From positions 1 through 64,000 of the IMG/VR virus record IMGVR_UViG_3300027779_002770: DNA of 64,000 bases. One strand, given 5' to 3'. The stretch comes from a virus. A program made the translations under genes and the position numbers. The notes beneath the pieces were generated by a model. It was not told the DNA's origin. It made no database searches and worked only from the letters and a program-made list of their open reading frames with translations. The stretch's first letter is position 1, and every line of letters begins with the position of its first letter. Positions 20,146 through 43,614 of this stretch are shown piece by piece.

Positions 20146-21048
20146 ATGAAAGTAATTGTTACAGGAGGCGCAGGCTTTATAGGCAGCGCATTAGTAGATA
20201 AATTAATAAAAAAGAAGCATGAAGTAATAATTTTAGATAATTTATCAACAGGAACAGAAAAATACTTAAATCCAAAAGCTAGATTTATAGAGTGCGACAT
20301 TTCAGATGACAAACAGTTTGAATATGCAGAGTACTTTTTTGACGGTGTAGATGTAGTATTTCATACAGCTGCAATGCCAAGAGTACAACCATCAATTGAT
20401 GATCCTATTCGATATCATGAAGTAAATGTTTTAGGGACATTAAAGTTATTAATGGCGTGTAGAGATAACAATGTAAGAAGGTTTGTATTTAGTTCATCTT
20501 CTTCTGTATACGGAAATCCAAAAATACTTCCAGCTTTGGAAGATCATGAGTTGAATCCATTGAGTCCCTATGCATTGAATAAACAAATGGGAGAACAGTA
20601 TTGTAAAATTTTTAGTGAGCTCTATGGCCTTGAAACTGTCGCGTTAAGATACTTTAATGTGTATGGCGATAGACAACCGACTGAGGGTGCTTATTGCTTG
20701 GTCATGGGTGTATTTTTAAATCAGCTTCTTAATGGTAAAAAATTAACAATCAATGGTGATGGAGAGCAGCGAAGAGATTTTACTTATGTTGGTGACGTTG
20801 TTGATGCAAATATAAAAGCAGCCTATACATCTTTAGATAAGTTTGAGGTCTTTAATATTGGGGCAGGAAGTAGTAAATCTGTAAATCATGTTGCTGATCT
20901 ATTTGATTGTGACAGAATACATAGAGATCCTGTTATAGAACCAAGAGAGCTACAGGCAGATGTTACTAAAGCAAAAAATATTCTAGATTGGAAGCCAACA
21001 GGTGATTTTGATAGTTGGTGTAAAAATTGGATAAAAAAGTATATATAA
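20146..21048 (+). CDS. NAD-dependent epimerase/dehydratase (UDP-glucose 4-epimerase-like)
   Basis: TGGAGFIG, SSSSVYG, YALNK, RYFNVYG. Confidence 0.93.
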   Translation: MKVIVTGGAGFIGSALVDKLIKKKHEVIILDNLSTGTEKYLNPKARFIECDISDDKQFEYAEYFFDGVDVVFHTAAMPRVQPSIDDPIRYHEVNVLGTLKLLMACRDNNVRRFVFSSSSSVYGNPKILPALEDHELNPLSPYALNKQMGEQYCKIFSELYGLETVALRYFNVYGDRQPTEGAYCLVMGVFLNQLLNGKKLTINGDGEQRRDFTYVGDVVDANIKAAYTSLDKFEVFNIGAGSSKSVNHVADLFDCDRIHRDPVIEPRELQADVTKAKNILDWKPTGDFDSWCKNWIKKYI

Positions 21049-27516: not shown

Positions 27517-27951
27517 ATGTACGATTGCTATATTGCTAGTGGTTGGTTCAATGAGAATCAAGCACGAGACTTAGAAAACATAAAATCTACACTTGATGAA
27601 ATGGGTGTTAAATATTTTTCACCAAAAGATGAAATCGTTGCCAAGCGTGATGCCACATTGGAAGAGCAAGAAATGATTTTTAAGGGAAATGTTGATGCTA
27701 TCACAAGTGGAAAATTTGTTGTTTGTAATACACGTGATAAAGATCTGGGAACAATATTTGAGGCAGGATTTTCATATGCATCAGGTATTCCGCTAATCTA
27801 TTATGCTGAAGGGCTACAAGGTAATTTCAATCTTATGCTTTCTCGTAGTGGAAGGGCTGTTGCAACAAATGTAGATGAATTAAAAGAACACGTAAAAGGA
27901 ATAATGGAAAATCCAAAATATGAAAAAGAATACGTCGGTTTCGTTGAGTGA
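27517..27951 (+). CDS. nucleoside 2-deoxyribosyltransferase-fold nucleotide N-glycosidase (RCL/MilB-like)
   Basis: YIASGWF, DLGTIFEAGF (nucleophile Glu), FNLML. Confidence 0.85.
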   Translation: MYDCYIASGWFNENQARDLENIKSTLDEMGVKYFSPKDEIVAKRDATLEEQEMIFKGNVDAITSGKFVVCNTRDKDLGTIFEAGFSYASGIPLIYYAEGLQGNFNLMLSRSGRAVATNVDELKEHVKGIMENPKYEKEYVGFVE

Positions 27952-28453
27952 TTTTGTAGATAATATCTATATTTTAAAAGCACTTACAAGATATAATAAT
28001 AAATTTAAAATAATTAATGAATCAGTAGCAGAACATTCTTATTTTGTTGCTGTATTAACACTTAAAATGCATGATGATTATAATTTTGATCTAGAAGAGG
28101 CGCTCAAAATGGCACTAATTCATGACATTCCGGAATTACATTTATCAGATGTCACACATGATGTAAAGCGTAATTTTCCAAAGCTTGCACAAGAAGTAAC
28201 TAATGCTGAATATGTCATTATGAAGCAAAAATATCCGCAATGGTTCACAGAATTCAAAAAATTTGAAGATCAGGAGTCAGTTGAGGCATTAGTTGTAAAG
28301 ATGGCAGATAATCTTAGTTGTGTGCAATATGCAACTGCAGAAATGTTGCTTGGCAATAAGGGTTATATGAAAGAAGTCGCTGAAAATGCCGCTAAAAGAG
28401 TTATGCAATGTGAAAGAAAATTAAAAAAATGGAGAAAAATAAATGCCAATTAA
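27920..28453 (+). CDS. HD-domain 5'-deoxynucleotidase (YfbR/DatZ-like)
   Basis: RY...ESVAEHS, ALIHDIPE, KMAD. Confidence 0.88.
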   Translation: MKKNTSVSLSDFVDNIYILKALTRYNNKFKIINESVAEHSYFVAVLTLKMHDDYNFDLEEALKMALIHDIPELHLSDVTHDVKRNFPKLAQEVTNAEYVIMKQKYPQWFTEFKKFEDQESVEALVVKMADNLSCVQYATAEMLLGNKGYMKEVAENAAKRVMQCERKLKKWRKINAN

Positions 28454-29408
28454 CAATGATTTACCAGTAGTTGAACTTCCAACTGGTCTGGGATTTAACG
28501 AACCAATAAAAACAGACTTCCATGATCATCTGGACTCTGTAAAAATAAAGCTAGTAAGCAGCCCTTCAATAGAAGAATTAAGAAACTATATACCTGACTT
28601 TTGTACTGCTACATGGGCAGAACAGCCTTTCAATAAAGCCGGACTGTCAAATTATGAAAAAGATAAAATGATTTGGATGTTATTTGATGGAAAGCTATTG
28701 CCAACAGCATTCGAAACAATAAACTGTACGTTTACCATAGAGGGTATTGACACTCAATTTGTAACACACTTAATCAGACATCGTACATTCAGCTTTTCAG
28801 CGCAATGTACAGGTGACAGATCACAAAGAAATGATAATGCTGTCATACCCCATGCAATCATTAACACACCTGAGATGGCTGAACGCTATAAACAATTAGT
28901 CAATGACACAAAGCAGCTTTACGCTGACATGGTTGACACAAAGCAAATTTCTGTTATGGATGCCAGGCATATTTTGCCAAAATGCCTAAGTACATTTTAC
29001 TGGGCAAGAGGTAACATAAGAGATGTAATGGCTTTTATCAAGACCCGCATCGATAAACAAATCCAACCAACAGAAGATAATTTAGTTGCATACTACATGT
29101 GGTTAGAACTGGTAAGGCAATATCCAATGCTTATTGACTGTATCGACATCCACACGCCTGCAAGATATTATATTTCTACAGCAAGAACAGGTACAGGCAC
29201 AAATCTTTACTGGCCAGATGAAGACTCTGATCTGTTTGACTATAATGAAGATGATTTTTTATATCAGTCTATACGTGAAGATCTTAACGGAACTAAAGAC
29301 TCTGGTAGAAATACATTCATTGAAAAGCTAATAGAAGTAGATAAAGAATTAGAAGAAATAAGACAAGTCGCATATGAAAGATATGATTTTTTAAAAGAAG
29401 GAAAATAG
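28443..29408 (+). CDS. thyX: divergent flavin-dependent thymidylate synthase (ThyX-like)
   Basis: RHRTFSFSAQC, DARHILP, N.R...F...R motifs. Confidence 0.82.
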   Translation: MPINNDLPVVELPTGLGFNEPIKTDFHDHLDSVKIKLVSSPSIEELRNYIPDFCTATWAEQPFNKAGLSNYEKDKMIWMLFDGKLLPTAFETINCTFTIEGIDTQFVTHLIRHRTFSFSAQCTGDRSQRNDNAVIPHAIINTPEMAERYKQLVNDTKQLYADMVDTKQISVMDARHILPKCLSTFYWARGNIRDVMAFIKTRIDKQIQPTEDNLVAYYMWLELVRQYPMLIDCIDIHTPARYYISTARTGTGTNLYWPDEDSDLFDYNEDDFLYQSIREDLNGTKDSGRNTFIEKLIEVDKELEEIRQVAYERYDFLKEGK

Positions 29409-29761
29409 TGGAACGGCTAGAAGAAATATACGAACTACAGAAACATTTTACAGAAAGATTCTTTAAAGAAAAACAAGGGTTAACATTAGATGAAGTAAGA
29501 TCTGATAAAGAACAACTTGTAAAATGGAACAAAGAATACATACTCGCTTTAATAGCTGAGGCGACTGAGGTTTTAAACGAAGTTGATTGGAAGATGCATA
29601 AAAAAATGAATCTTCCAAATGATGCAAGAGAACGATTACTGGAAGAAAGTATTGATGTCATGAAATTCTTATTGGGACTGATGATAGTCAATGGATTCAG
29701 CCTTGAAGACATCTATACTATGTTTGTAAAGAAATCAAAAATAGTTGAAAAAAGACTATAA
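29408..29761 (+). CDS. all-alpha NTP pyrophosphatase (dimeric dUTPase / dCTPase / MazG-like)
   Basis: AEATEVLNEVDWKMHK...EESIDVMKF (ExxE...ExxD). Confidence 0.85.
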   Translation: MERLEEIYELQKHFTERFFKEKQGLTLDEVRSDKEQLVKWNKEYILALIAEATEVLNEVDWKMHKKMNLPNDARERLLEESIDVMKFLLGLMIVNGFSLEDIYTMFVKKSKIVEKRL

Positions 29762-29821: not shown

Positions 29822-32800
29822 TTGTCATTAAAAAATATAACACCACCAGATAGATTCACCGGGTTACATTCACACACAACATTTAGTACATTCGATGCAA
29901 TAGGCTACCCATCAGATCATATTGATTTTATTACAAGTGATCCGCAAGGCGGCGATTCATGGGCAATTACTGATCATGGAAATGGTAACGGATTAGGCCA
30001 CGCAAATGCGCATGCCAATATAGTTAAAAAGTCTGGTAGAAAATATCGTCAGTTATACGGTGTTGAATTTTATTTTATACCCTCAATAAAAACTTGGCAG
30101 CAACAATATGAAGCACATCGTGCAACTGTTCAAGCAGAAAGAGATGCTAAAAAACAAGAGAAGCTAGCAAATACACCAGTTATTATTGATGCTGAAAAAG
30201 AAGTAGAGGCAGGCGGCCATGTGTTAGAGGACGAATCTGAAACAAAGGGCTCTGCAAAAGGTAAACCGGCTTGGAAGAGGTATCATCATCTAGTTGTTGT
30301 TGCAAAAAATAGGCAAGGATTAGCTAATCTATTTACACTTGTTAAGAAGTCTTATAAAGATGGATTCTATAGATTCCCTCGTATTGATTTTGAAATGCTT
30401 AAAGCACATGGTGATGGGCTAGTTGTATCAACAGCATGTGTTGGAGGCCTGGCATCGGGTATAATTTACAATGAGTTTCAAGATTTAACTTTTGATCAAT
30501 TCCATCCTGATCTATTAAATAATTCATTGAAATACAATACAATCATGAAAAGATTAACAAATATGACTGATTATTTTGTTGATTGCGTTGGGCCAGAGAA
30601 CTTCTTCCTAGAAATACAATTTAATAAATTAACAGCACAACAAATGACAAATCGTATGTTGCTTGATTTATCTAAAAATACAGGTATCAAATTAGTTGCA
30701 ACTGCTGATTCACATTATCCATCACCTGATGTTTGGGAGGCAAGAGAACTTTATAAAAAATTAGGTTGGTTTAGCAACGATCCTAAAAAGATGATACTCC
30801 CAAAAGAAGAAGAACTAAAGTGCTTATTATACCCTAAAAATGCACAACAGATGTGGTCTGAATTTACAGAAAATTATAATGAATATGATTTTTATAAAGG
30901 TCATGAAACTGAAGTTCGCGATGCGATAAATAGAACACATGATATTGCGTGGGATCTATGTGAAGATACATGGATTGATCAATCAGCAAAGCTACCAATT
31001 CACGGAACAACAGAAAAACCTGCATTTAATATGCTTGTTGATTTAGCTAGAGAGGGCTTGATCCGTGAAGGCTTAGATAAAAAACAGGAATATATTGATC
31101 GTACAAAAAAAGAGTTAGCAGATATAAAGACACTTGGTCATGAATCATATTTTATAACAATGTATCAGATCTTTGACAAGTCTTCCAAGCGGACATTATT
31201 GGGCCCCGGTCGTGGTTCAGGCGCAGGTAGTCTTGTAAACTTCTTATTAGGAATAACTCAGCTTGATCCACTTGAATATGGCTTATTATGGGAAAGATTT
31301 TTAGGACCGCATAAAGTATCCTGGCCAGATATTGATACTGATGCAGGTGATCGCGATGTCCTAATTGAGGTATCAAAAGAGCTGTATGGCGAAGAATCAG
31401 TTATTCCTGTATCAAATTTCAATACACTAAAATTAAAATCACTTCTTAAAGATGTATCAAAGTTTTATGGCGTACCATTTGCAGAAGTAAACAATCTTTC
31501 AAACGGACTCCAGGAAGAAGTCATGCCTTTTGCACGTGGTGATAATGAAGAAAAATCAATGTTCATGCTTAAACATGAAGATTGTATGGAACATTCCAAA
31601 CGTTACAAAGATTTTATGGAAAAATATCCTAATGTTGCAAGACAAATCAGTTCTTTATTTTTACAAAATAGAAGTATTGGACGACATGCAGGCGGTGTTA
31701 TAATAGCACCTGAAAAAGATCTCACAAGCTGTATGCCTATTATATCAGTTAGAGGTGAATTACAAACACCGTGGTCTGAAGGCATGAATGTTAGAAATTT
31801 AGAACCTAATGGATTCCTTAAATTTGATTTCTTAGGTTTAACATTGTTACGAGATGTAGAAAATTGTATTAGACGTATTCTTAAAAAACAAGGTAATTCT
31901 GATCCAACATTTTTAGAAGTAAAAGAGTTCTTTGATAAAAAATTAAATTGTCGAAATGCAAAGATGGATGACCCAAAAGTCTGGAAACATGTGTATGAAG
32001 ATGGAAAGTTTACAGCAATCTTCCAGTTTACTGCAGATGGTGCAAGACGATTTTGTCTAGACGCAAAGCCAACCGACATTGAAACACTTGGAGCGATAAC
32101 AGCAATCTACAGACCTGGTCCGCTTAAAGCTAATGTACATCAAAAATTTGTTAAAAATAAACGACAAGCAGCGATGATAGACTATGATCATCCTTTAATT
32201 GAAAAAATATTAGGACCAACATTCAATAATATTGTATTTCAAGAACAGTTCATGTTGCTAGCACAAGATCTTTCAGGCTTTACATTAGGTGAGGCAGATA
32301 AGCTTAGGAAGACATTAGTTAAGATGTCACATGATTCTCTTAGCGGTAAGAAAAATGAAAGACAATTTGCAAAAGAGAAGTTTATTTCTGGTGCTAAGAA
32401 GCTTAATGGCATTGATGAAAAAATTACAACTGATTTGTGGGAAAAAATTGAAGCATTTTCTACGTATGGATTTAATAAATCACATGCAATTGCTTACGCA
32501 ATTGACTCTTACTATGGTGCATGGTTACACACATATTATGAAGTAGAATGGTTAGCAACAATACTTGATTCTGAAAATAATAATCCCAAAGGCTTAACAA
32601 AAACAATTTCTGAAATAAAATCTTATGGCTACCAAATTATTGATGCTGATATAAACTATTCTGGTATACAATGGGAATATTCAACTGAAATAGATGCATT
32701 TGTTCCTCCGCTATCTTCAATCAAAGGTGTAGGTGCTGCAGCAATGAATGAAGTTATGGGAGCTAGACCCTTTAGAAATATTAAAGAATTGTTATATGAT

Positions 32801-33457
32801 TCTGAAGGTAGCTGGAGATGGTCAAAGTTTAATAAGTCTGCAATTAAATCACTGTGTACTGTTGAGGCATTAGGCTCGATTGCGGAATTCAATAATGGAA
32901 CTTTAAATAATCATAATCAATTACTCCACGTGCTAACAGATGATAAAAATTATGAAACACTTAGAAAGCACATAAGCGGTTTAACAAAGACACAACGTCA
33001 GAAACTTGAAAAGCAAAATGAATACCCAACAGACTATATTGATGGATTATTTAGTAAATATGCAGATATTCCTGATTGGTCTAGAATGGAAAAGATCGAG
33101 AATTATGCTTCAATGACAGCAACAATAAAAAATGATCTTGTATTTCCGGAAGAAGTTATGGACCAAATTGGCTTACATAATGTAATATGTGCTTTTGATA
33201 TACCTGAAGGGACAAGGAAGCAAGGATGGTTTTCTGTTATTGAAAAGACTAAAAAGAAATCAAAAAATAATAGAGTTTTCTGGAGTCTAAAGATAATCGA
33301 TAATCAAAATAATACAGGCTGGTTACGTGTTTGGGGCGATTTTTACGAAGATAAAGAGCCAGGTAAATATACATTTTGTCTTGCTGATATTCACAATGAT
33401 TCACAATGGGGAATGTCAACAAATGCAGCAAAATTTAAAATAATACCTTTACAATAA
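29822..33457 (+). CDS. dnaE: DNA polymerase III alpha subunit (family C) with PHP domain
   Basis: HSHT, TDHG, ADSHY (PHP); GPGRGSGAGSL, PDIDTD, HAGG, KFDFLGL, YGFNKSHA. Confidence 0.96.
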   Translation: MSLKNITPPDRFTGLHSHTTFSTFDAIGYPSDHIDFITSDPQGGDSWAITDHGNGNGLGHANAHANIVKKSGRKYRQLYGVEFYFIPSIKTWQQQYEAHRATVQAERDAKKQEKLANTPVIIDAEKEVEAGGHVLEDESETKGSAKGKPAWKRYHHLVVVAKNRQGLANLFTLVKKSYKDGFYRFPRIDFEMLKAHGDGLVVSTACVGGLASGIIYNEFQDLTFDQFHPDLLNNSLKYNTIMKRLTNMTDYFVDCVGPENFFLEIQFNKLTAQQMTNRMLLDLSKNTGIKLVATADSHYPSPDVWEARELYKKLGWFSNDPKKMILPKEEELKCLLYPKNAQQMWSEFTENYNEYDFYKGHETEVRDAINRTHDIAWDLCEDTWIDQSAKLPIHGTTEKPAFNMLVDLAREGLIREGLDKKQEYIDRTKKELADIKTLGHESYFITMYQIFDKSSKRTLLGPGRGSGAGSLVNFLLGITQLDPLEYGLLWERFLGPHKVSWPDIDTDAGDRDVLIEVSKELYGEESVIPVSNFNTLKLKSLLKDVSKFYGVPFAEVNNLSNGLQEEVMPFARGDNEEKSMFMLKHEDCMEHSKRYKDFMEKYPNVARQISSLFLQNRSIGRHAGGVIIAPEKDLTSCMPIISVRGELQTPWSEGMNVRNLEPNGFLKFDFLGLTLLRDVENCIRRILKKQGNSDPTFLEVKEFFDKKLNCRNAKMDDPKVWKHVYEDGKFTAIFQFTADGARRFCLDAKPTDIETLGAITAIYRPGPLKANVHQKFVKNKRQAAMIDYDHPLIEKILGPTFNNIVFQEQFMLLAQDLSGFTLGEADKLRKTLVKMSHDSLSGKKNERQFAKEKFISGAKKLNGIDEKITTDLWEKIEAFSTYGFNKSHAIAYAIDSYYGAWLHTYYEVEWLATILDSENNNPKGLTKTISEIKSYGYQIIDADINYSGIQWEYSTEIDAFVPPLSSIKGVGAAAMNEVMGARPFRNIKELLYDSEGSWRWSKFNKSAIKSLCTVEALGSIAEFNNGTLNNHNQLLHVLTDDKNYETLRKHISGLTKTQRQKLEKQNEYPTDYIDGLFSKYADIPDWSRMEKIENYASMTATIKNDLVFPEEVMDQIGLHNVICAFDIPEGTRKQGWFSVIEKTKKKSKNNRVFWSLKIIDNQNNTGWLRVWGDFYEDKEPGKYTFCLADIHNDSQWGMSTNAAKFKIIPLQ

Positions 33458-33481: not shown

Positions 33482-34390
33482 ATGCTATTATTAAATAATA
33501 TTACACTTGAAGGTGCAGATTTGGCAGGAAAAACTACGCTAATGAAAAGACTTCACAAAGAGACAAAAAATAAATACAATATTATTGACAGATCTCTTAT
33601 GTCAGCGCTAGTTTATGCTAGGTTATATAAACGACCAAATATCTCACTTCTAGAAAAACAACTAAGAGATGATTTAAATAACTTAAATAATCGGACAATC
33701 GTATTAATGCCAGATTTAGAGTTATTAGGAGAGCGATACAATAAAAGAGGTGATGAGATTCAAAATTGGCATGGAATTATAAAGATAAGAGAAGCATACG
33801 AAGAAGTATTAAATATTTATGAATCATTTAGCACTGTCCATGTTGTTAGAAACTCATCTGAACTCCCATGGGAACCACATGATGAAGTATTGAAATATCT
33901 TGCGAATAGTGAGACTAGTGATATTCCTTATCAAGTTAGACAAAATGCTATTGCTTCTGATAATGAAGCATTTCCGGTAACATTTGAAGTTAATCTTAGC
34001 GCTAGTTTTATGACATCACATGCTGATGCATTAGAACATCAATCTGAAAAAGCTTATTATACAAAAATACTTTCTAAGATGTTGACAACAATTACAAAAG
34101 AAAATATTGGTGATAATCCTTACGGCAAACCACAAGATCCAAAAGCTACGAGACGATATATTTATGCAGATGATTCTTGTATAGCATTATTTCATATGAT
34201 GTATCGCAAAGATAGATTAAATTTCTATGCAACGTTAAGGTCATCAGATGTTGTAAATATATTTGAACACGATTATAAATTCTTATTGTATTTATGTGGT
34301 CAATGTGCAAAAGCCGTGGGAATAAAAGATTATGAAATACCAAAAGAAAATACGTTAACAATTACGCTACATTCAGCACACATAACATAA
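33482..34390 (+). CDS. fusion of dNMP (thymidylate-like) kinase and thymidylate-synthase-fold enzyme with dCMP-type Asp
   Basis: P-loop EGADLAGKTT and DRS in N-half; RR, catalytic Cys, RSSD, Asp at the Asn177-equivalent position and SAH in C-half. Confidence 0.8.
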   Translation: MLLLNNITLEGADLAGKTTLMKRLHKETKNKYNIIDRSLMSALVYARLYKRPNISLLEKQLRDDLNNLNNRTIVLMPDLELLGERYNKRGDEIQNWHGIIKIREAYEEVLNIYESFSTVHVVRNSSELPWEPHDEVLKYLANSETSDIPYQVRQNAIASDNEAFPVTFEVNLSASFMTSHADALEHQSEKAYYTKILSKMLTTITKENIGDNPYGKPQDPKATRRYIYADDSCIALFHMMYRKDRLNFYATLRSSDVVNIFEHDYKFLLYLCGQCAKAVGIKDYEIPKENTLTITLHSAHIT

Positions 34391-34824
34391 TGCCAAATTA
34401 TAACAAGTACTTTAAACAAATATTAAAAGAGACAGCTGCTATGTCAACATGTGCAAGGGTACAAGTTGGTTGTGTAATTGTAAGAGATGGAAGAATAATA
34501 TCAACAGGATGGAACGGTGTACCTGCTGGACAAGAGCATTGTAAAGATGAGTATGTATTTGGTGGTTTGCCAATTGAATCACATCACACATGGTCAACAA
34601 AGCATGAAGTTCATGCTGAGACAAACGCAATAGGCTATGCTGCGAAAAATGGGGTAGCTACACAAGGTGCAACAATTTACACGTCAGTCTCACCTTGTAT
34701 TGACTGCGCAAAATTAATAATAGCAGCAGGTATAAAGTGTGTTTATTATATAGACGAGTATGATAGAAGTAATACTGGAGAAGCATTTTTACGTAGAAAT
34801 AAAATAGGTTGTACAAAATTATGA
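34390..34824 (+). CDS. dCMP deaminase
   Basis: STCARVQVG, GWNG, HAETNA, SPCIDC. Confidence 0.93.
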   Translation: MPNYNKYFKQILKETAAMSTCARVQVGCVIVRDGRIISTGWNGVPAGQEHCKDEYVFGGLPIESHHTWSTKHEVHAETNAIGYAAKNGVATQGATIYTSVSPCIDCAKLIIAAGIKCVYYIDEYDRSNTGEAFLRRNKIGCTKL

Positions 34825-41871: not shown

Positions 41872-42643
41872 GTTTATAGTTCCAGAACCTTTTCGTTTTG
41901 GAAATAGAACTAATACAACAGCAGATGATTTAAGATCTGTTCGAGGTGATGTGAAAATATCATCTAGATTAAATGAGCGTTTAAAGGGCAAGTCAGTTAT
42001 TATAATAGGTCCTTCTCCATACTTACAAGGGTTAGGCAGAGGAAAAGAAATTGATAAATTTGATGTGGTTATTAGGCTAAATAAAGGCTGGAATGTTAGC
42101 AAAGAACTACAAGCTGATTATGGAAAAAAGACGACAATGAGGTATCATTGTATGATGGAACATGAAAGTAATGGTGGAAAATACGACATAAGTGGTATGA
42201 AAGACTATGGCGTAGAATGGTTGGCATCCCAATTTCCATATAATCTAGACTATTTCCATGAAGATAATAAAAAATTTAGAGATCTAAATGAAAATCAAAT
42301 TAATTTTCATGTTCCAGCTGATTTATTATATCACTTAAACTTACATGAAATGATGGAGACAAGAGCAAATGTTGCAACGTCAGCAGTCTTTGATTTAATC
42401 AATTATGACATAGATCATTTACACCTATCAGGTATCTCATTTTATAGAGATGGATGGGTTGGTAATTATAAAGACGGTGCTGAAAATACAGATGATGAGG
42501 GCAATTATAAAATGGACATGAAACATATGCAGAAAGAAGGTCACGCACAGGAAGCACAAATGCATTTACTTAAACTTTTATTATCAACGGACGACAAGTT
42601 TTCTGTTGATAATGAGATACAAAATATACTGGAGTCAAAATGA
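41849..42643 (+). CDS. GT29 (sialyltransferase-like) glycosyltransferase
   Basis: sialylmotif-L-like SVIIIGPSPYL...GKEIDKFDVVIRLN...DYGKKT; motif-S-like segment and terminal His (GHAQEAQ). Confidence 0.75.
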   Translation: METYKLIEFIVPEPFRFGNRTNTTADDLRSVRGDVKISSRLNERLKGKSVIIIGPSPYLQGLGRGKEIDKFDVVIRLNKGWNVSKELQADYGKKTTMRYHCMMEHESNGGKYDISGMKDYGVEWLASQFPYNLDYFHEDNKKFRDLNENQINFHVPADLLYHLNLHEMMETRANVATSAVFDLINYDIDHLHLSGISFYRDGWVGNYKDGAENTDDEGNYKMDMKHMQKEGHAQEAQMHLLKLLLSTDDKFSVDNEIQNILESK

Positions 42644-43614
42644 ATTCTTTAAACATACATGATCAGAAAATATTAATTACAGGTGGCGCAGGTTATATTG
42701 GAACGGAGCTCACGAAGTTACTATTAGAAAGCGGATACTATGTCACAGTGTACGATAGGTTAATGTACGATGGTGCAGTTTTAATTCCATTTTTCAGCGA
42801 TCCAAATTTCAACTTTATAAAAGGAGACATCCTAGACAAAGACAAATTATCAGATGCAATGACAGATAAAGATGTTATTATTCATTTAGCAGCTGTTGTG
42901 GGCTATTTTGCATGTGACAAGAATAAGAACATGTCAACAGATATTAATGTACAAGGTACACAAAATGTACTTGACGCAATTGAACCATCTCAACTGCTAT
43001 TATTCGGATCAACAGGATCAAATTACGGCAAAGTTGATGGTATATGTCTCGAGACAACGCCGTTAAACCCATCAACACTTTATGGAAGAACAAAAACAGA
43101 AGCAGAAGATATTGTAATGAATCAACATAATAATTCAATTGCGTATAGATTTGCAACAGCATTCGGTATTTCACCAAGACTTCGTATGGATTTATTAATA
43201 AATGATCTTGTGTATAAAGCTGTAACTGAGGGAGCATTAGTAATCTATCAATCAAGCGCAATGAGAACATTCATTCATGTTAGAGATATGGCGATGTCAT
43301 TTTTATTTGCAATTGTAAATCATGATAAAATGTCAGGTGAAGTATACAATTGCGGATCTAATGACTTAAACTATTCAAAACGTGATATTTGTGATATGAT
43401 TAAGGATAAGACTGGGTGCTATATACACTATAATGATTTTGACTATGACAAAGATAACAGAGATTATGAGGTATCGTATGACAAGTTATATGATTTGGGC
43501 TATGATATCAGTGTAAGTATTGATGAAGGGATTGATGAATTATTAAATGTTTACAATGTACTAAATTTTGTTGATAAGAGATATTTGAATACTGGATTTC
43601 CAGAAATAAATTAA
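42640..43614 (+). CDS. NAD-dependent nucleotide-sugar epimerase/dehydratase
   Basis: TGGAGYIG, HLAAVVG, YGRTK. Confidence 0.92.
   Translation: MNSLNIHDQKILITGGAGYIGTELTKLLLESGYYVTVYDRLMYDGAVLIPFFSDPNFNFIKGDILDKDKLSDAMTDKDVIIHLAAVVGYFACDKNKNMSTDINVQGTQNVLDAIEPSQLLLFGSTGSNYGKVDGICLETTPLNPSTLYGRTKTEAEDIVMNQHNNSIAYRFATAFGISPRLRMDLLINDLVYKAVTEGALVIYQSSAMRTFIHVRDMAMSFLFAIVNHDKMSGEVYNCGSNDLNYSKRDICDMIKDKTGCYIHYNDFDYDKDNRDYEVSYDKLYDLGYDISVSIDEGIDELLNVYNVLNFVDKRYLNTGFPEIN

What the first reader, a model, noticed from the sequence alone, without database searches (positions are those of the whole stretch)
33482..34390. dNMP kinase fused to a minimal thymidylate-synthase fold with the dCMP-specificity Asp
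Seen: Cys codon 34178-34180 lies exactly 20 residues before the RSSD Arg (34238), as C146 to R166 in E. coli ThyA. The residue 11 after that Arg is Asp (GAT 34271-34273), where ThyA has Asn177. Known: Asn gives dUMP specificity and Asp (T4 gp42 Asp179) gives dCMP specificity. The TS half is only ~150 aa and appears to lack much of the N-terminal folate-binding region. Inference: a dCMP C5-modifying enzyme, possibly with folate-independent or new chemistry, channelled to its own kinase.
Basis: partly seen in the sequence, partly recalled or inferred. Interest (0 to 1): 0.85.

Follow-up and report, generated by a model that had tools for sequence, protein, structure and literature searches.

The report
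Phage kinase fused to mini thymidylate-synthase
An uncultured marine giant phage encodes, right after its DNA polymerase gene, one protein that joins a small nucleotide kinase to a 156-residue, stripped-down thymidylate-synthase-type domain built to grip dCMP, so it and many relatives probably make and activate an altered cytosine for their DNA, by chemistry that is still untested.

Summary
ORF 33482-34390 (302 aa) has Cys233, Arg253-Ser254 and Asp264 spaced as C146, R166-S167 and N177 in E. coli ThyA. Profile alignment (hhalign E 9e-9), a separate MAFFT alignment and a pLDDT-96 model all place them there. The top seven of 48,161 PDB chains are all TS-superfamily members, Z 10.2-8.2, with the next hit at 6.0.

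Residues 1-152 form a P-loop kinase like SPbeta YorR and thymidylate kinases (Z 12.4-11.9). All catalytic motifs are invariant in 81 orthologues.

A dCMP C5-modifying enzyme coupled to its own kinase is the best reading. "New chemistry" is not shown: folate-independent TS homologues already exist, namely the flavin/O2 dCMP 5-hydroxylases AfhB and RB69 gp48, and they are the top fold hits.

The window protein keeps Asp at the D169 position, so it fails the published D169N marker. Across orthologues this position flips N/D/E at least 8 times.

The missing parts are scattered plus the whole C-terminus, not only N-terminal.

The family is virus-restricted. DnaE lies directly upstream in 80 of 80 loci. 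I found no paper describing it. The scan has already reported this fusion in at least 8 other genomes. Verdict: a new variant of a known kind, product unknown.

The parts
33482..34390 (+). Whole ORF, 302 aa: kinase and mini TS-fold fusion. Its stop overlaps the start of the next gene (TAATG at 34388-34392).
   Evidence: Full-length model pLDDT 92.7, pTM 0.89. 50 clusters at 90% identity and 235 representatives at 50% identity, almost all about 300 aa.
33482..33937 (+). N-terminal P-loop kinase domain (residues 1-152), YorR/thymidylate-kinase-like.
   Evidence: VIA-align: YorR 3kb2/2axp Z 12.4, S. aureus TMK Z 11.9, M. mycoides deoxyadenosine kinase Z 11.7. PDB profile hit to YorR E 1.8e-12. 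PHROG 761 'thymidylate kinase' E 1e-12. Below the curated cut-offs of PF02223 and TIGR00041.
33512..33535 (+). P-loop G11-A-D13-L-A-G16-K17-T18 (EGxDxxGKT, TMPK-type with an acidic residue).
   Evidence: D13, G16 and K17 are invariant in 81/81. D13 aligns with the Asp of Aquifex TMK 'EGIDGSGKTT'.
33587..33592 (+). D36-R37 motif of the kinase.
   Evidence: Invariant in 81/81. Aligns with the 'DR' of YorR and TMK.
33734..33754 (+). LID-like R85-x3-R89-G90-D91.
   Evidence: Invariant in 81/81. Aligned to the YorR 'RLRVRGDE' segment.
33920..34387 (+). C-terminal minimal TS-fold domain (residues 147-302).
   Evidence: Domain model pLDDT 96.3. The top 7 of 48,161 chains are all TS superfamily, Z 10.2-8.2. 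Foldseek 9iqu E 4e-7. hhalign E 9e-9.
34151..34156 (+). R224-R225, equivalent to ThyA R126-R127 (phosphate-binding arginines donated across the dimer in TS).
   Evidence: R224 81/81 and R225 80/81.
34178..34180 (+). Cys233, equivalent to ThyA C146, T4 gp42 C148 and RB69 gp48 C163 (the nucleophile).
   Evidence: 81/81.
34238..34249 (+). R253-S254-S255-D256, equivalent to ThyA R166-S167-C168-D169. D256 is the 'D169N marker' position.
   Evidence: R253 and S254 81/81. Position 256 is N in 36, D in 32 and E in 13, with at least 8 changes on the tree.
34271..34273 (+). Asp264, equivalent to ThyA N177, T4 gp42 D179 and RB69 gp48 D194 (the residue that selects cytosine over uracil).
   Evidence: 81/81. 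The role of this residue is described in PMC13326640.
34379..34381 (+). His300, equivalent to ThyA H207. The protein ends two residues later, so ThyA 210-264 has no counterpart.
   Evidence: 81/81.
29822..33457 (+). DnaE-type DNA polymerase III alpha, directly upstream.
   Evidence: A homologue lies directly upstream of the fusion in 80 of 80 related IMG/VR loci.
34390..34824 (+). dCMP deaminase, with its start overlapping the fusion's stop.
   Evidence: Pfam PF00383 E 1e-24. A homologue lies within 10 kb in 68 of 80 loci.
28443..29408 (+). Divergent long ThyX-like flavoprotein paralogue that travels with the fusion.
   Evidence: Thy1 E 5e-20. A long, weak Thy1 match of about 320-350 aa is present in 45 of 49 fusion-bearing records. 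All five records that are at least 61% complete also hold a canonical ThyX.
27517..29761 (+). Nucleotide-pool genes upstream: an NDT-fold protein (27517-27951), an HD 5'-deoxynucleotidase (27920-28453) and an all-alpha MazG/dUTPase_2-like pyrophosphatase (29408-29761).
   Evidence: Homologues within 10 kb of the fusion in 39, 4 and 21 of 80 loci respectively.

Best explanation
The gene encodes a bifunctional enzyme that supplies a C5-modified deoxycytidine nucleotide for phage DNA synthesis.

The C-terminal 156-residue domain is a pared-down thymidylate-synthase fold. It binds dCMP through Arg253-Ser254 and probably Arg224-Arg225 from a second subunit. It reads the cytosine N3/N4 face with Asp264. 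Cys233 attacks C6, so that C5 becomes nucleophilic and accepts a substituent.

The N-terminal YorR/thymidylate-kinase-like domain then uses ATP to convert the modified dCMP to the diphosphate. Host NDP kinase makes the triphosphate, and the DnaE polymerase encoded directly upstream incorporates it.

I commit to 5-hydroxylation with a loosely bound flavin and O2, as in AfhB and RB69 gp48, as the single most likely chemistry. This is only a plurality. My odds are about 0.35 for hydroxylation, 0.2 for folate-dependent hydroxymethylation, 0.15 for another electrophile and 0.3 that the general scheme is wrong.

Shown: the fold, the residue equivalences, the invariance, the fusion and the synteny. 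Inferred: the substrate, catalysis, the dimer, the cofactor, the product and the order of the two steps.
For: TS fold:
- The domain model has pLDDT 96.3.
- Its best match is 9iqc, a flavin-dependent dCMP monooxygenase (Z 10.2, 137 of 156 residues, 3.2 A). Three bacterial ThyA structures (3ix6 9.8, 3v8h 9.7, 6auj 9.2), a plant DHFR-TS (8dae 9.0), T4 dCH (8.2) and MilA (8.2) follow. The next, unrelated chain scores 6.0.
- Foldseek ranks 9iqu and 9iqc first for both models.

Active-site equivalences come from hhalign (E 9e-9) and MAFFT.

Invariance: C233, R224, R253, S254, D264, H300, E162, E189, Y192 and R242 are unchanged in 81/81 orthologues.

Features shared with the phage dCMP-modifying enzymes but not with ThyA:
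- R242 matches gp42 R157 and gp48 R172, where ThyA has A155.
- E162 matches gp42 E35 and gp48 E43, where ThyA has S28.
- S298 matches Ser in gp42 and gp48, where ThyA has D205.

Signs against folate:
- The domain has no Trp, so there is no W80 or W83.
- ThyA G173 is replaced by I260, as in RB69 gp48 (V190).
- ThyA 210-264 is absent.

Kinase:
- Z 12.4 to YorR and 11.9 to TMK.
- The P-loop with a TMPK-type Asp, the DR motif and the RxxxRGD motif are invariant.

Published work: Asp at the N177 position gives dCMP preference. RB69 and DLP3 TS homologues give a visible 5hodC peak in E. coli DNA only when co-expressed with their cognate dNMP kinase, and only a trace when expressed alone (PMC13326640). 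The fusion therefore unites exactly that minimal pair.

Context:
- DnaE is directly upstream in 80/80 loci, and dCMP deaminase lies nearby in 68/80.
- Five large relatives have no canonical TS and no DHFR.
- The fusion is virus-restricted: one hit in 185,579 prokaryote species genomes, on a 26-kb MAG contig.
Against: - No enzyme assay and no nucleoside analysis of this phage's DNA exist.
- The window protein has Asp, not Asn, at the D169 position, so it fails the published marker of 5hodCMP synthases.
- The fold ranking of AfhB over ThyA is within a tie (Z 10.2 against 9.8).
- The cofactor pocket cannot be inspected, because no coordinates are returned.
- The equivalent of the catalytic Glu (ThyA E58) is unresolved. 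E189-x-x-Y192-Y193 fits the motif, but hhalign and MAFFT place it differently and with low confidence.
- No R21 equivalent was found.
- Pfam PF00303 and the TMK models do not reach their cut-offs.
- The kinase fold is equally close to deoxynucleoside kinases (2jaq Z 11.7), so the acceptor is not established.
Confidence: 0.65

Rival explanations
1. Same architecture, but classical folate chemistry. The mini TS domain is a T4 gp42-type dCMP hydroxymethylase (or methylase) that uses CH2-THF, and the kinase makes hm-dCDP.
For: The window protein keeps Asp256 at the D169 position, as gp42 (D171) and ThyA do, and unlike RB69 gp48 (N186). An acidic D230/D231 lies just before the Cys, as in the L143D/E hydroxymethylases. 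T4 dCH is among the top fold matches (Z 8.2). These phages carry ThyX, so CH2-THF is in use during infection.
Against: The domain has no Trp, so the W80 (gp42 W82) and W83 equivalents are missing. G173 is replaced by I260. ThyA 97-119, 133-143 and 210-264 are absent. Position 256 drifts between N, D and E among close orthologues, whereas the published 5hodCMP synthases consistently carry Asn there and, from general knowledge, folate-dependent TS enzymes keep Asp.
Confidence: 0.2
2. The order is reversed, or the kinase is a salvage enzyme. The N-terminal domain phosphorylates deoxycytidine (or another nucleoside) to feed dCMP into the TS-like domain, rather than phosphorylating the product.
For: The kinase fold is as close to deoxynucleoside kinases (2jaq Z 11.7) as to TMKs (Z 11.9). 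The DRS and RxxxRGD motifs resemble the ERS and LID motifs of dNK-family kinases; that comparison rests on my own knowledge and was not tested. Relatives carry thymidine kinase, NDT-fold and nucleotidase genes nearby.
Against: The P-loop has the TMPK-type acidic residue (EGxD13), aligned with the Asp of Aquifex TMK. From general knowledge, this residue contacts the 3'-OH of the dNMP in TMPKs and is absent from dNKs. No conserved general-base Glu follows the P-loop helix. Modified dCMPs need a dedicated dNMP kinase in T4 and RB69.
Confidence: 0.1
3. The TS-like domain is not a C5-modifying enzyme. It could be a dCMP-binding regulatory or scaffolding module for the kinase, or it could act on another substrate (dUMP, CMP).
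For: About 43% of a canonical TS is missing. Pfam PF00303 does not detect the domain. No cofactor site could be shown.
Against: The nucleophilic Cys, both phosphate-binding pairs, His300 and Asp264 are invariant across 81 orthologues that are only about 30% identical overall. That pattern is expected for catalysis rather than mere binding. Asp at the N177 position argues against dUMP.
Confidence: 0.07

Closest known systems
Flavin/O2-dependent dCMP 5-hydroxylases (5hodCMP synthases): AfhB of E. coli phage HY126 (PDB 9iqu, 9iqc), RB69 gp48, DLP3 gp80 (PMC13326640; He et al., Nat Chem Biol 2026, cited there, not readable here)
   Same: TS fold, and the best structural match. The catalytic Cys, the RS and RR pairs, and Asp at the N177 position are kept. 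There is no Trp at W80 and no Gly at G173. Arg at ThyA position 155 and Ser-Ala-His at the last strand are as in gp48. These enzymes are phage-encoded and work together with a dNMP kinase.
   Different: 156 aa against 217-238 aa. It is fused to the kinase instead of being a separate gene. The window protein has Asp, not the diagnostic Asn, at D169, and the family flips between N, D and E. Flavin binding is untested. The phage lineage is different (DnaE-type marine jumbo phages).
T4 gp42 dCMP hydroxymethylase together with gp1 dNMP kinase
   Same: Asp264 matches D179, C233 matches C148, D256 matches D171, R242 matches R157 and E162 matches E35. The pathway logic is the same: modify dCMP, phosphorylate it with a phage kinase, and keep a dCMP deaminase alongside.
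   Different: gp42 is 246 aa and folate-dependent, and it retains the Trp at the W80 position. gp1 is a separate protein. Here the two functions lie in one 302-aa chain.
E. coli ThyA (thymidylate synthase, PF00303)
   Same: The core beta-sheet and helices (Z 9.8 to Brucella ThyA, 133 residues aligned). C146, R126/R127, R166/S167, D169, H207 and Y94 all have counterparts.
   Different: N177 is Asp. 59 internal residues and all of 210-264 are missing. W80, W83 and R21 have no counterparts. The domain scores below the Pfam threshold.
SPbeta YorR (PDB 2axp, 3kb2) and thymidylate kinases
   Same: The N-domain fold (Z 12.4 and 11.9), the P-loop, the DR motif and the RxxxRGD LID.
   Different: It is shorter (about 150 aa against 173-210 aa), scores below the TMK family cut-offs, and is fused to a TS-fold domain. 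The substrate of YorR itself is not known to me.
MilA/MilB of mildiomycin biosynthesis (CMP hydroxymethylase plus an NDT-fold hmCMP N-glycosidase)
   Same: A cytosine-specific TS homologue (MilA Z 8.2) occurs in a gene cluster with an NDT-fold protein (window 27517-27951; 39 of 80 loci).
   Different: MilA is 318 aa, acts on the ribonucleotide and is bacterial. The parallel is recalled from the literature (MilA is cited) and was not tested for the NDT-fold protein here.

Membership tests
Thymidylate synthase / dCMP hydroxymethylase superfamily (TS fold) | TS alpha/beta fold | tested here: met
   The top 7 of 48,161 PDB chains are all TS-superfamily members, Z 10.2-8.2 with 129-137 residues aligned. 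The next chain scores Z 6.0. Foldseek gives probability 1.00.
Thymidylate synthase / dCMP hydroxymethylase superfamily (TS fold) | Nucleophilic Cys (C146) and phosphate-binding R166-S167 and R126-R127 | tested here: met
   hhalign E 9e-9 and MAFFT agree. C233, R253, S254 and R224 are 81/81; R225 is 80/81.
Thymidylate synthase / dCMP hydroxymethylase superfamily (TS fold) | Reaches the curated Pfam PF00303 score | tested here: not met
   No PF00303 hit at E <= 1 for the protein or in the six-frame search of its own record. Only PHROG 160 'thymidylate synthase' hits, at E 2e-4.
Thymidylate synthase / dCMP hydroxymethylase superfamily (TS fold) | Obligate homodimer with arginines donated across the interface | not testable with these tools
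The RR pair and the interface strands are conserved.
Folate-dependent TS / T4 gp42-type dCMP hydroxymethylase | Folate-contacting elements (W80, W83, G173, C-terminal segment) and an invariant D169 | tested here: not met
   There is no Trp in the domain, G173 is I260 and ThyA 210-264 is absent. D169 is kept in the window protein but is N, D or E across orthologues. Folate binding itself was not tested.
Cytosine-specific TS homologues (gp42, MilA, AfhB/gp48) | Asp in place of ThyA N177 | tested here: met
   D264 pairs with N177, gp42 D179 and gp48 D194. It is 81/81.
5hodCMP synthase (AfhB / RB69 gp48 type) | D169N signature (PMC13326640) | tested here: not met
   The window protein has D256. 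Asn is present in 36 of 81 orthologues, Asp in 32 and Glu in 13, with at least 8 switches on the tree.
5hodCMP synthase (AfhB / RB69 gp48 type) | Acidic residue at the L143 position | tested here: inconclusive
   D230-D231 precede S232-C233, but the alignment has an 11-residue gap here (ThyA 133-143), so the equivalence is uncertain. Position 231 is D, E or N in 77 of 81.
5hodCMP synthase (AfhB / RB69 gp48 type) | Binds flavin and makes 5-hydroxy-dCMP from dCMP and O2 | not testable with these tools
   This needs a protein preparation and LC-MS. There is only fold similarity to 9iqc and 9iqu.
Thymidylate kinase / dNMP kinase (P-loop NMP kinase) | P-loop GxxxxGK[ST] with the TMPK-type acidic residue, a DR motif and LID arginines | tested here: met
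   EGAD13LAGK17T, D36-R37 and R85-x3-R89-G-D91 are all 81/81. They align to YorR and Aquifex TMK.
Thymidylate kinase / dNMP kinase (P-loop NMP kinase) | Kinase fold | tested here: met
   YorR Z 12.4 (140-143 residues), S. aureus TMK Z 11.9 (134 residues).
Thymidylate kinase / dNMP kinase (P-loop NMP kinase) | Reaches curated family scores (PF02223, TIGR00041) | tested here: not met
   PF02223 scores 20.2 bits against a cut-off of 27. TIGR00041 scores 30.4 against 83.25.

The most novel reading that the evidence does not exclude
The 156-residue core has lost both the folate and the AfhB-type cofactor pocket and carries out a C5 chemistry on dCMP that has not yet been described. It would do so either with a new electrophile or together with the co-conserved divergent ThyX-like flavoprotein, which is present in 45 of 49 fusion-bearing records. 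On this reading, a widespread group of marine and freshwater DnaE-type jumbo phages carries an unknown cytosine derivative in its DNA.
Probability: 0.15. Interest if true: 0.85.

Novelty: new variant of a known kind. Interest (0 to 1): 0.6.

Why it matters
TS-superfamily enzymes that modify dCMP or dUMP are the entry points to all known pyrimidine hypermodifications of phage DNA. These modifications decide how phages escape restriction and CRISPR.

This family is the smallest TS-type domain I could find. It is about 43% smaller than ThyA. It is permanently fused to the kinase that such pathways need, and it sits next to the replicative polymerase in many uncultured jumbo phages that recur in seawater metagenomes from many studies.

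If the enzyme is active, it marks an abundant ocean virus group as carrying non-canonical cytosine. It would also show which parts of the TS fold are dispensable, and it would give a single-gene cassette for putting a modified C into DNA.

The free flipping of the D169 position (N, D or E) also tests how far the published D169N marker for 5-hydroxycytosine synthesis can be transferred.

Tried and rejected
- Complex prediction (homodimer of the TS-like domain) was unavailable, so the dimer is untested.
- Pfam PF00303 finds nothing in the protein or in the 82.7-kb record.
- tblastn against 50,697 phage records found only a 47-residue kinase-domain match in an unannotated faecal contig. No cultured relative was found. 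The DnaE has only hits of 28% identity or less.
- Sequence search of the PDB with the domain alone gave nothing significant. The family profile gave only weak TS hits: gp42 E 0.035, 9iqc and 9iqu E 0.32.
- A search for shorter stand-alone forms returned only contig-end fragments. The short proteins also look like fragments, and one looks like a chimera.
- Extending hhalign into the N-terminal half of the domain gave zero-confidence columns. The E58 equivalent (E189?) stays unresolved, and MAFFT puts E189 opposite ThyA N68.
- Cofactor clues from gene content: five large relatives (61-100% complete) have no DHFR, no SHMT and no PF01613 flavin reductase. This favours neither folate nor flavin.
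- Sequencing runs: the stretch is held by marine and seawater DNA runs of many studies, but all are Logan contigs, so base modification cannot be read. Two RNA runs cover only small pieces of DnaE and the genes at 34.9-35.4 kb, not the fusion. Nothing can be said about expression.
- Literature: no paper in the library describes this fusion. He et al. 2026 (AfhB) is not held.
- DUF1599/Nmad1 and the glycosyltransferase island are linked to the fusion only in the three closest loci, so I do not count them as part of the conserved system.
Full report
**What is there.** ORF 33482-34390 on the + strand encodes 302 residues. TGT 34178-34180 is Cys233, AGG 34238-34240 is Arg253 of L-R-S-S-D, and GAT 34271-34273 is Asp264. 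The stop codon overlaps the start of the next gene, a dCMP deaminase, as TAATG at 34388-34392. The window is bases 1-64000 of an 82,659-bp IMG/VR virus record rated 41% complete. All long ORFs lie on one strand, and the surrounding genes are phage replication and nucleotide-metabolism genes.

**N-terminal domain (residues 1-152).** Curated family models give only sub-threshold hits:
- PF02223 scores 20.2 bits against a cut-off of 27.
- TIGR00041 scores 30.4 against 83.25.
- PHROG 761 'thymidylate kinase' hits at E 1e-12.

A family profile hits SPbeta YorR at E 1.8e-12. The full-length AlphaFold model has pLDDT 92.7 and pTM 0.89. Its N-domain superposes on YorR (Z 12.4), on thymidylate kinases (Z about 11.9) and on a deoxyadenosine kinase (Z 11.7). 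The P-loop EGAD13LAGK17T, the D36-R37 pair and R85-x3-R89-G90-D91 are invariant in 81 orthologues. D13 aligns with the P-loop Asp of Aquifex TMK. From general knowledge, this is a TMPK hallmark that contacts the 3'-OH of the dNMP. I therefore read the domain as a dNMP kinase, but its acceptor is not established.

**C-terminal domain (residues 147-302).** Modelled alone with 61 sequences, it reaches pLDDT 96.3. A Foldseek-independent scan of 48,161 PDB chains puts seven TS-superfamily structures on top:
- 9iqc, a flavin-dependent dCMP monooxygenase: Z 10.2, 137 residues, 3.2 A.
- Three bacterial ThyA structures: 3ix6 Z 9.8, 3v8h Z 9.7, 6auj Z 9.2.
- A plant DHFR-TS, 8dae: Z 9.0.
- T4 dCMP hydroxymethylase: Z 8.2.
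- MilA: Z 8.2.

The next, unrelated chain scores Z 6.0. Foldseek ranks 9iqu and 9iqc (AfhB of phage HY126) first for both models. The Z values of AfhB and ThyA are tied, so the fold alone does not choose a subfamily.

**Residue equivalences.** I took ThyA, T4 gp42 and RB69 gp48 from annotated records. Profile-profile alignment gives 95.7% probability and E 9e-9. A separate MAFFT alignment agrees.

| Window protein | ThyA | T4 gp42 | RB69 gp48 |
|---|---|---|---|
| R224-R225 | R126-R127 | R123-R124 | R138-R139 |
| C233 | C146 | C148 | C163 |
| R253-S254 | R166-S167 | R168-S169 | R183-S184 |
| D256 | D169 | D171 | N186 |
| D264 | N177 | D179 | D194 |
| H300 | H207 | H216 | H224 |
| Y214 | Y94 | Y96 | Y116 |

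Several residues are shared with the two phage dCMP enzymes but not with ThyA. R242 matches gp42 R157 and gp48 R172, where ThyA has A155. E162 matches E35 and E43, where ThyA has S28. S298 matches Ser in both, where ThyA has D205.

**What is missing relative to ThyA.** Within ThyA 6-209, segments 21-27, 46, 51-62, 86-90, 97-119 and 133-143 have no partner. All of 210-264 is absent. That is 114 of 264 residues. The domain has no tryptophan, so W80 and W83 have no counterpart. G173 is I260, as RB69 gp48 has V190. The placement of the long helix 187-209 is uncertain. E189-x-x-Y192-Y193 looks like E58-x-x-W61-F62, but hhalign and MAFFT align it otherwise and with no confidence. The catalytic Glu is therefore unresolved.

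**The family.** There are 50 clusters at 90% identity and 235 representatives at 50% identity, 125 of them at E <= 1e-10. Nearly all are about 300 aa and fused. Shorter hits are contig-end fragments. Eighty IMG/VR loci were fetched, on contigs of up to 284 kb. Among 185,579 prokaryote species genomes the only hit is a 26-kb contig of a MAG labelled Methanobacteriota, which is probably a mis-binned phage contig. No cultured phage carries the fusion. Near-identical DNA occurs in marine and seawater metagenomes from many studies.

**Conservation and context.** All kinase motifs are invariant in 81/81. So are E162, E189, Y192, R224, C233, R242, R253, S254, D264 and H300. A DnaE homologue lies directly upstream in 80 of 80 loci. 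A dCMP deaminase lies within 10 kb in 68 of 80. In most distant relatives an SDR epimerase/dehydratase directly follows the fusion (62 of 80). NDT-fold, ThyX-like and MazG-like genes recur upstream. In relatives the neighbours also include thymidine kinase, a DHH phosphoesterase, GMP reductase and a MazG-NT5C fusion. The fusion therefore sits in a nucleotide-pool module wrapped around the polymerase. The DUF1599/Nmad1 gene and the glycosyltransferase island of this window are shared only by the three closest loci.

**Comparison with what is known.** Lee et al. (NAR 2026, PMC13326640) show that RB69 gp48, DLP3 gp80 and other viral TS homologues convert dCMP to 5-hydroxy-dCMP with O2 and a loosely bound flavin. 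They confirm that Asp at N177 gives dCMP preference and that an acidic residue at L143 goes with non-methyl products. They propose D169N as the diagnostic signature. They also find that 5hodC becomes a visible peak in E. coli DNA only when the cognate phage dNMP kinase is co-expressed. The fusion studied here unites exactly that pair in one chain.

It does not fit the marker, however. The window protein has Asp256. Among 81 orthologues this position is Asn in 36, Asp in 32 and Glu in 13. A maximum-likelihood tree needs at least 8 switches, including differences between sister sequences such as L051 (D) and L078 (N). The published 5hodCMP synthases consistently carry Asn at this position and, from general knowledge, folate-dependent TS enzymes keep Asp, so this tolerance fits neither known class cleanly.

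**Cofactor clues from gene content are neutral.** Five large relatives (61-100% complete) have no canonical TS, DHFR, SHMT or PF01613 flavin reductase. Each has two ThyX genes: a canonical one and a divergent copy of about 330 aa near the fusion. Of 49 fusion-bearing records of at least 50 kb, 45 carry the divergent type, to which the window's gene 28443-29408 belongs. Whether this flavoprotein works with the fusion is open.

**Verdict.** The best explanation (0.65) is a bifunctional enzyme that modifies dCMP at C5 through Cys233 and phosphorylates the product for use by the adjacent DnaE. Flavin/O2 5-hydroxylation is the leading guess for the chemistry (about 0.35), followed by folate hydroxymethylation (about 0.2) and something new (about 0.15). 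The finding is a new variant of a known kind. I found no paper that describes it.

The scan has already reported the same fusion in at least eight other genomes with the same reading. I had reached the AfhB comparison independently.

- the N/D/E flipping at the marker position;
- the residues shared specifically with gp42 and gp48;
- the 80-of-80 linkage to DnaE;
- the co-travelling ThyX-like paralogue.

Noticed in passing
window 28443-29408; records G001-G049: A divergent, long (about 320-350 aa) ThyX-like paralogue travels with the fusion. It is present in 45 of 49 fusion-bearing records of at least 50 kb. All five records that are at least 61% complete also hold a separate canonical ThyX. 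This may be a second flavin-dependent pyrimidine enzyme rather than the dTMP synthase.
   Followed up: partly
window 34247-34249 (Asp256) and loci L004-L083: The position equivalent to ThyA D169, published as a D169N marker of 5-hydroxy-dCMP synthases, is N in 36, D in 32 and E in 13 of 81 orthologues. It changes at least 8 times on the tree, even between sister sequences.
   Followed up: yes
window 34388-34392: The stop codon of the fusion overlaps the start codon of the dCMP deaminase gene (TAATG), which suggests translational coupling.
   Followed up: no
loci L024, L030 and others; window 20146-21048 and 42640-43614: In most distant relatives an NAD-dependent epimerase/dehydratase (SDR) gene directly follows the fusion, and a second one precedes DnaE (62 and 50 of 80 loci). 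In this window the two SDR homologues lie elsewhere. Their role, whether in sugar-nucleotide synthesis or something else, is unknown.
   Followed up: partly
L085 (PBHZ01000014.1, 26,155 bp): The only hit among 185,579 prokaryote species genomes is a contig of a MAG labelled Methanobacteriota, at 69% identity. It is probably a phage contig binned by mistake.
   Followed up: no
window 27517-27951: An NDT-fold (PF05014) gene shares the cluster with a cytosine-type TS homologue. This recalls the MilA/MilB pair of mildiomycin biosynthesis. A homologue lies within 10 kb of the fusion in 39 of 80 loci.
   Followed up: no
BFVD entry A0A3G1L3Q7 (Synechococcus phage S-CBWM1, 151 aa): An uncharacterised 151-aa protein of a cultured cyanophage matches the mini TS-fold model over its whole length (TM 0.57 by target length, rmsd 4.4 A, 12% identity). 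It may be a stand-alone mini TS fold in a cultivable phage.
   Followed up: no
window 37226-57947: A large glycosylation and sugar-nucleotide island (GT4, GT2, GT29, SDR, DegT aminotransferase) lies downstream. It is shared only with the three closest loci, so its acceptor (DNA base, capsid or host surface) cannot be inferred from linkage.
   Followed up: partly
L030:1601-2542: A relative encodes a fusion of an all-alpha dUTPase_2/MazG-like domain with an NT5C 5'-deoxynucleotidase domain. That would be a one-chain dNTP to dNMP to nucleoside sanitising enzyme in the same module.
   Followed up: no
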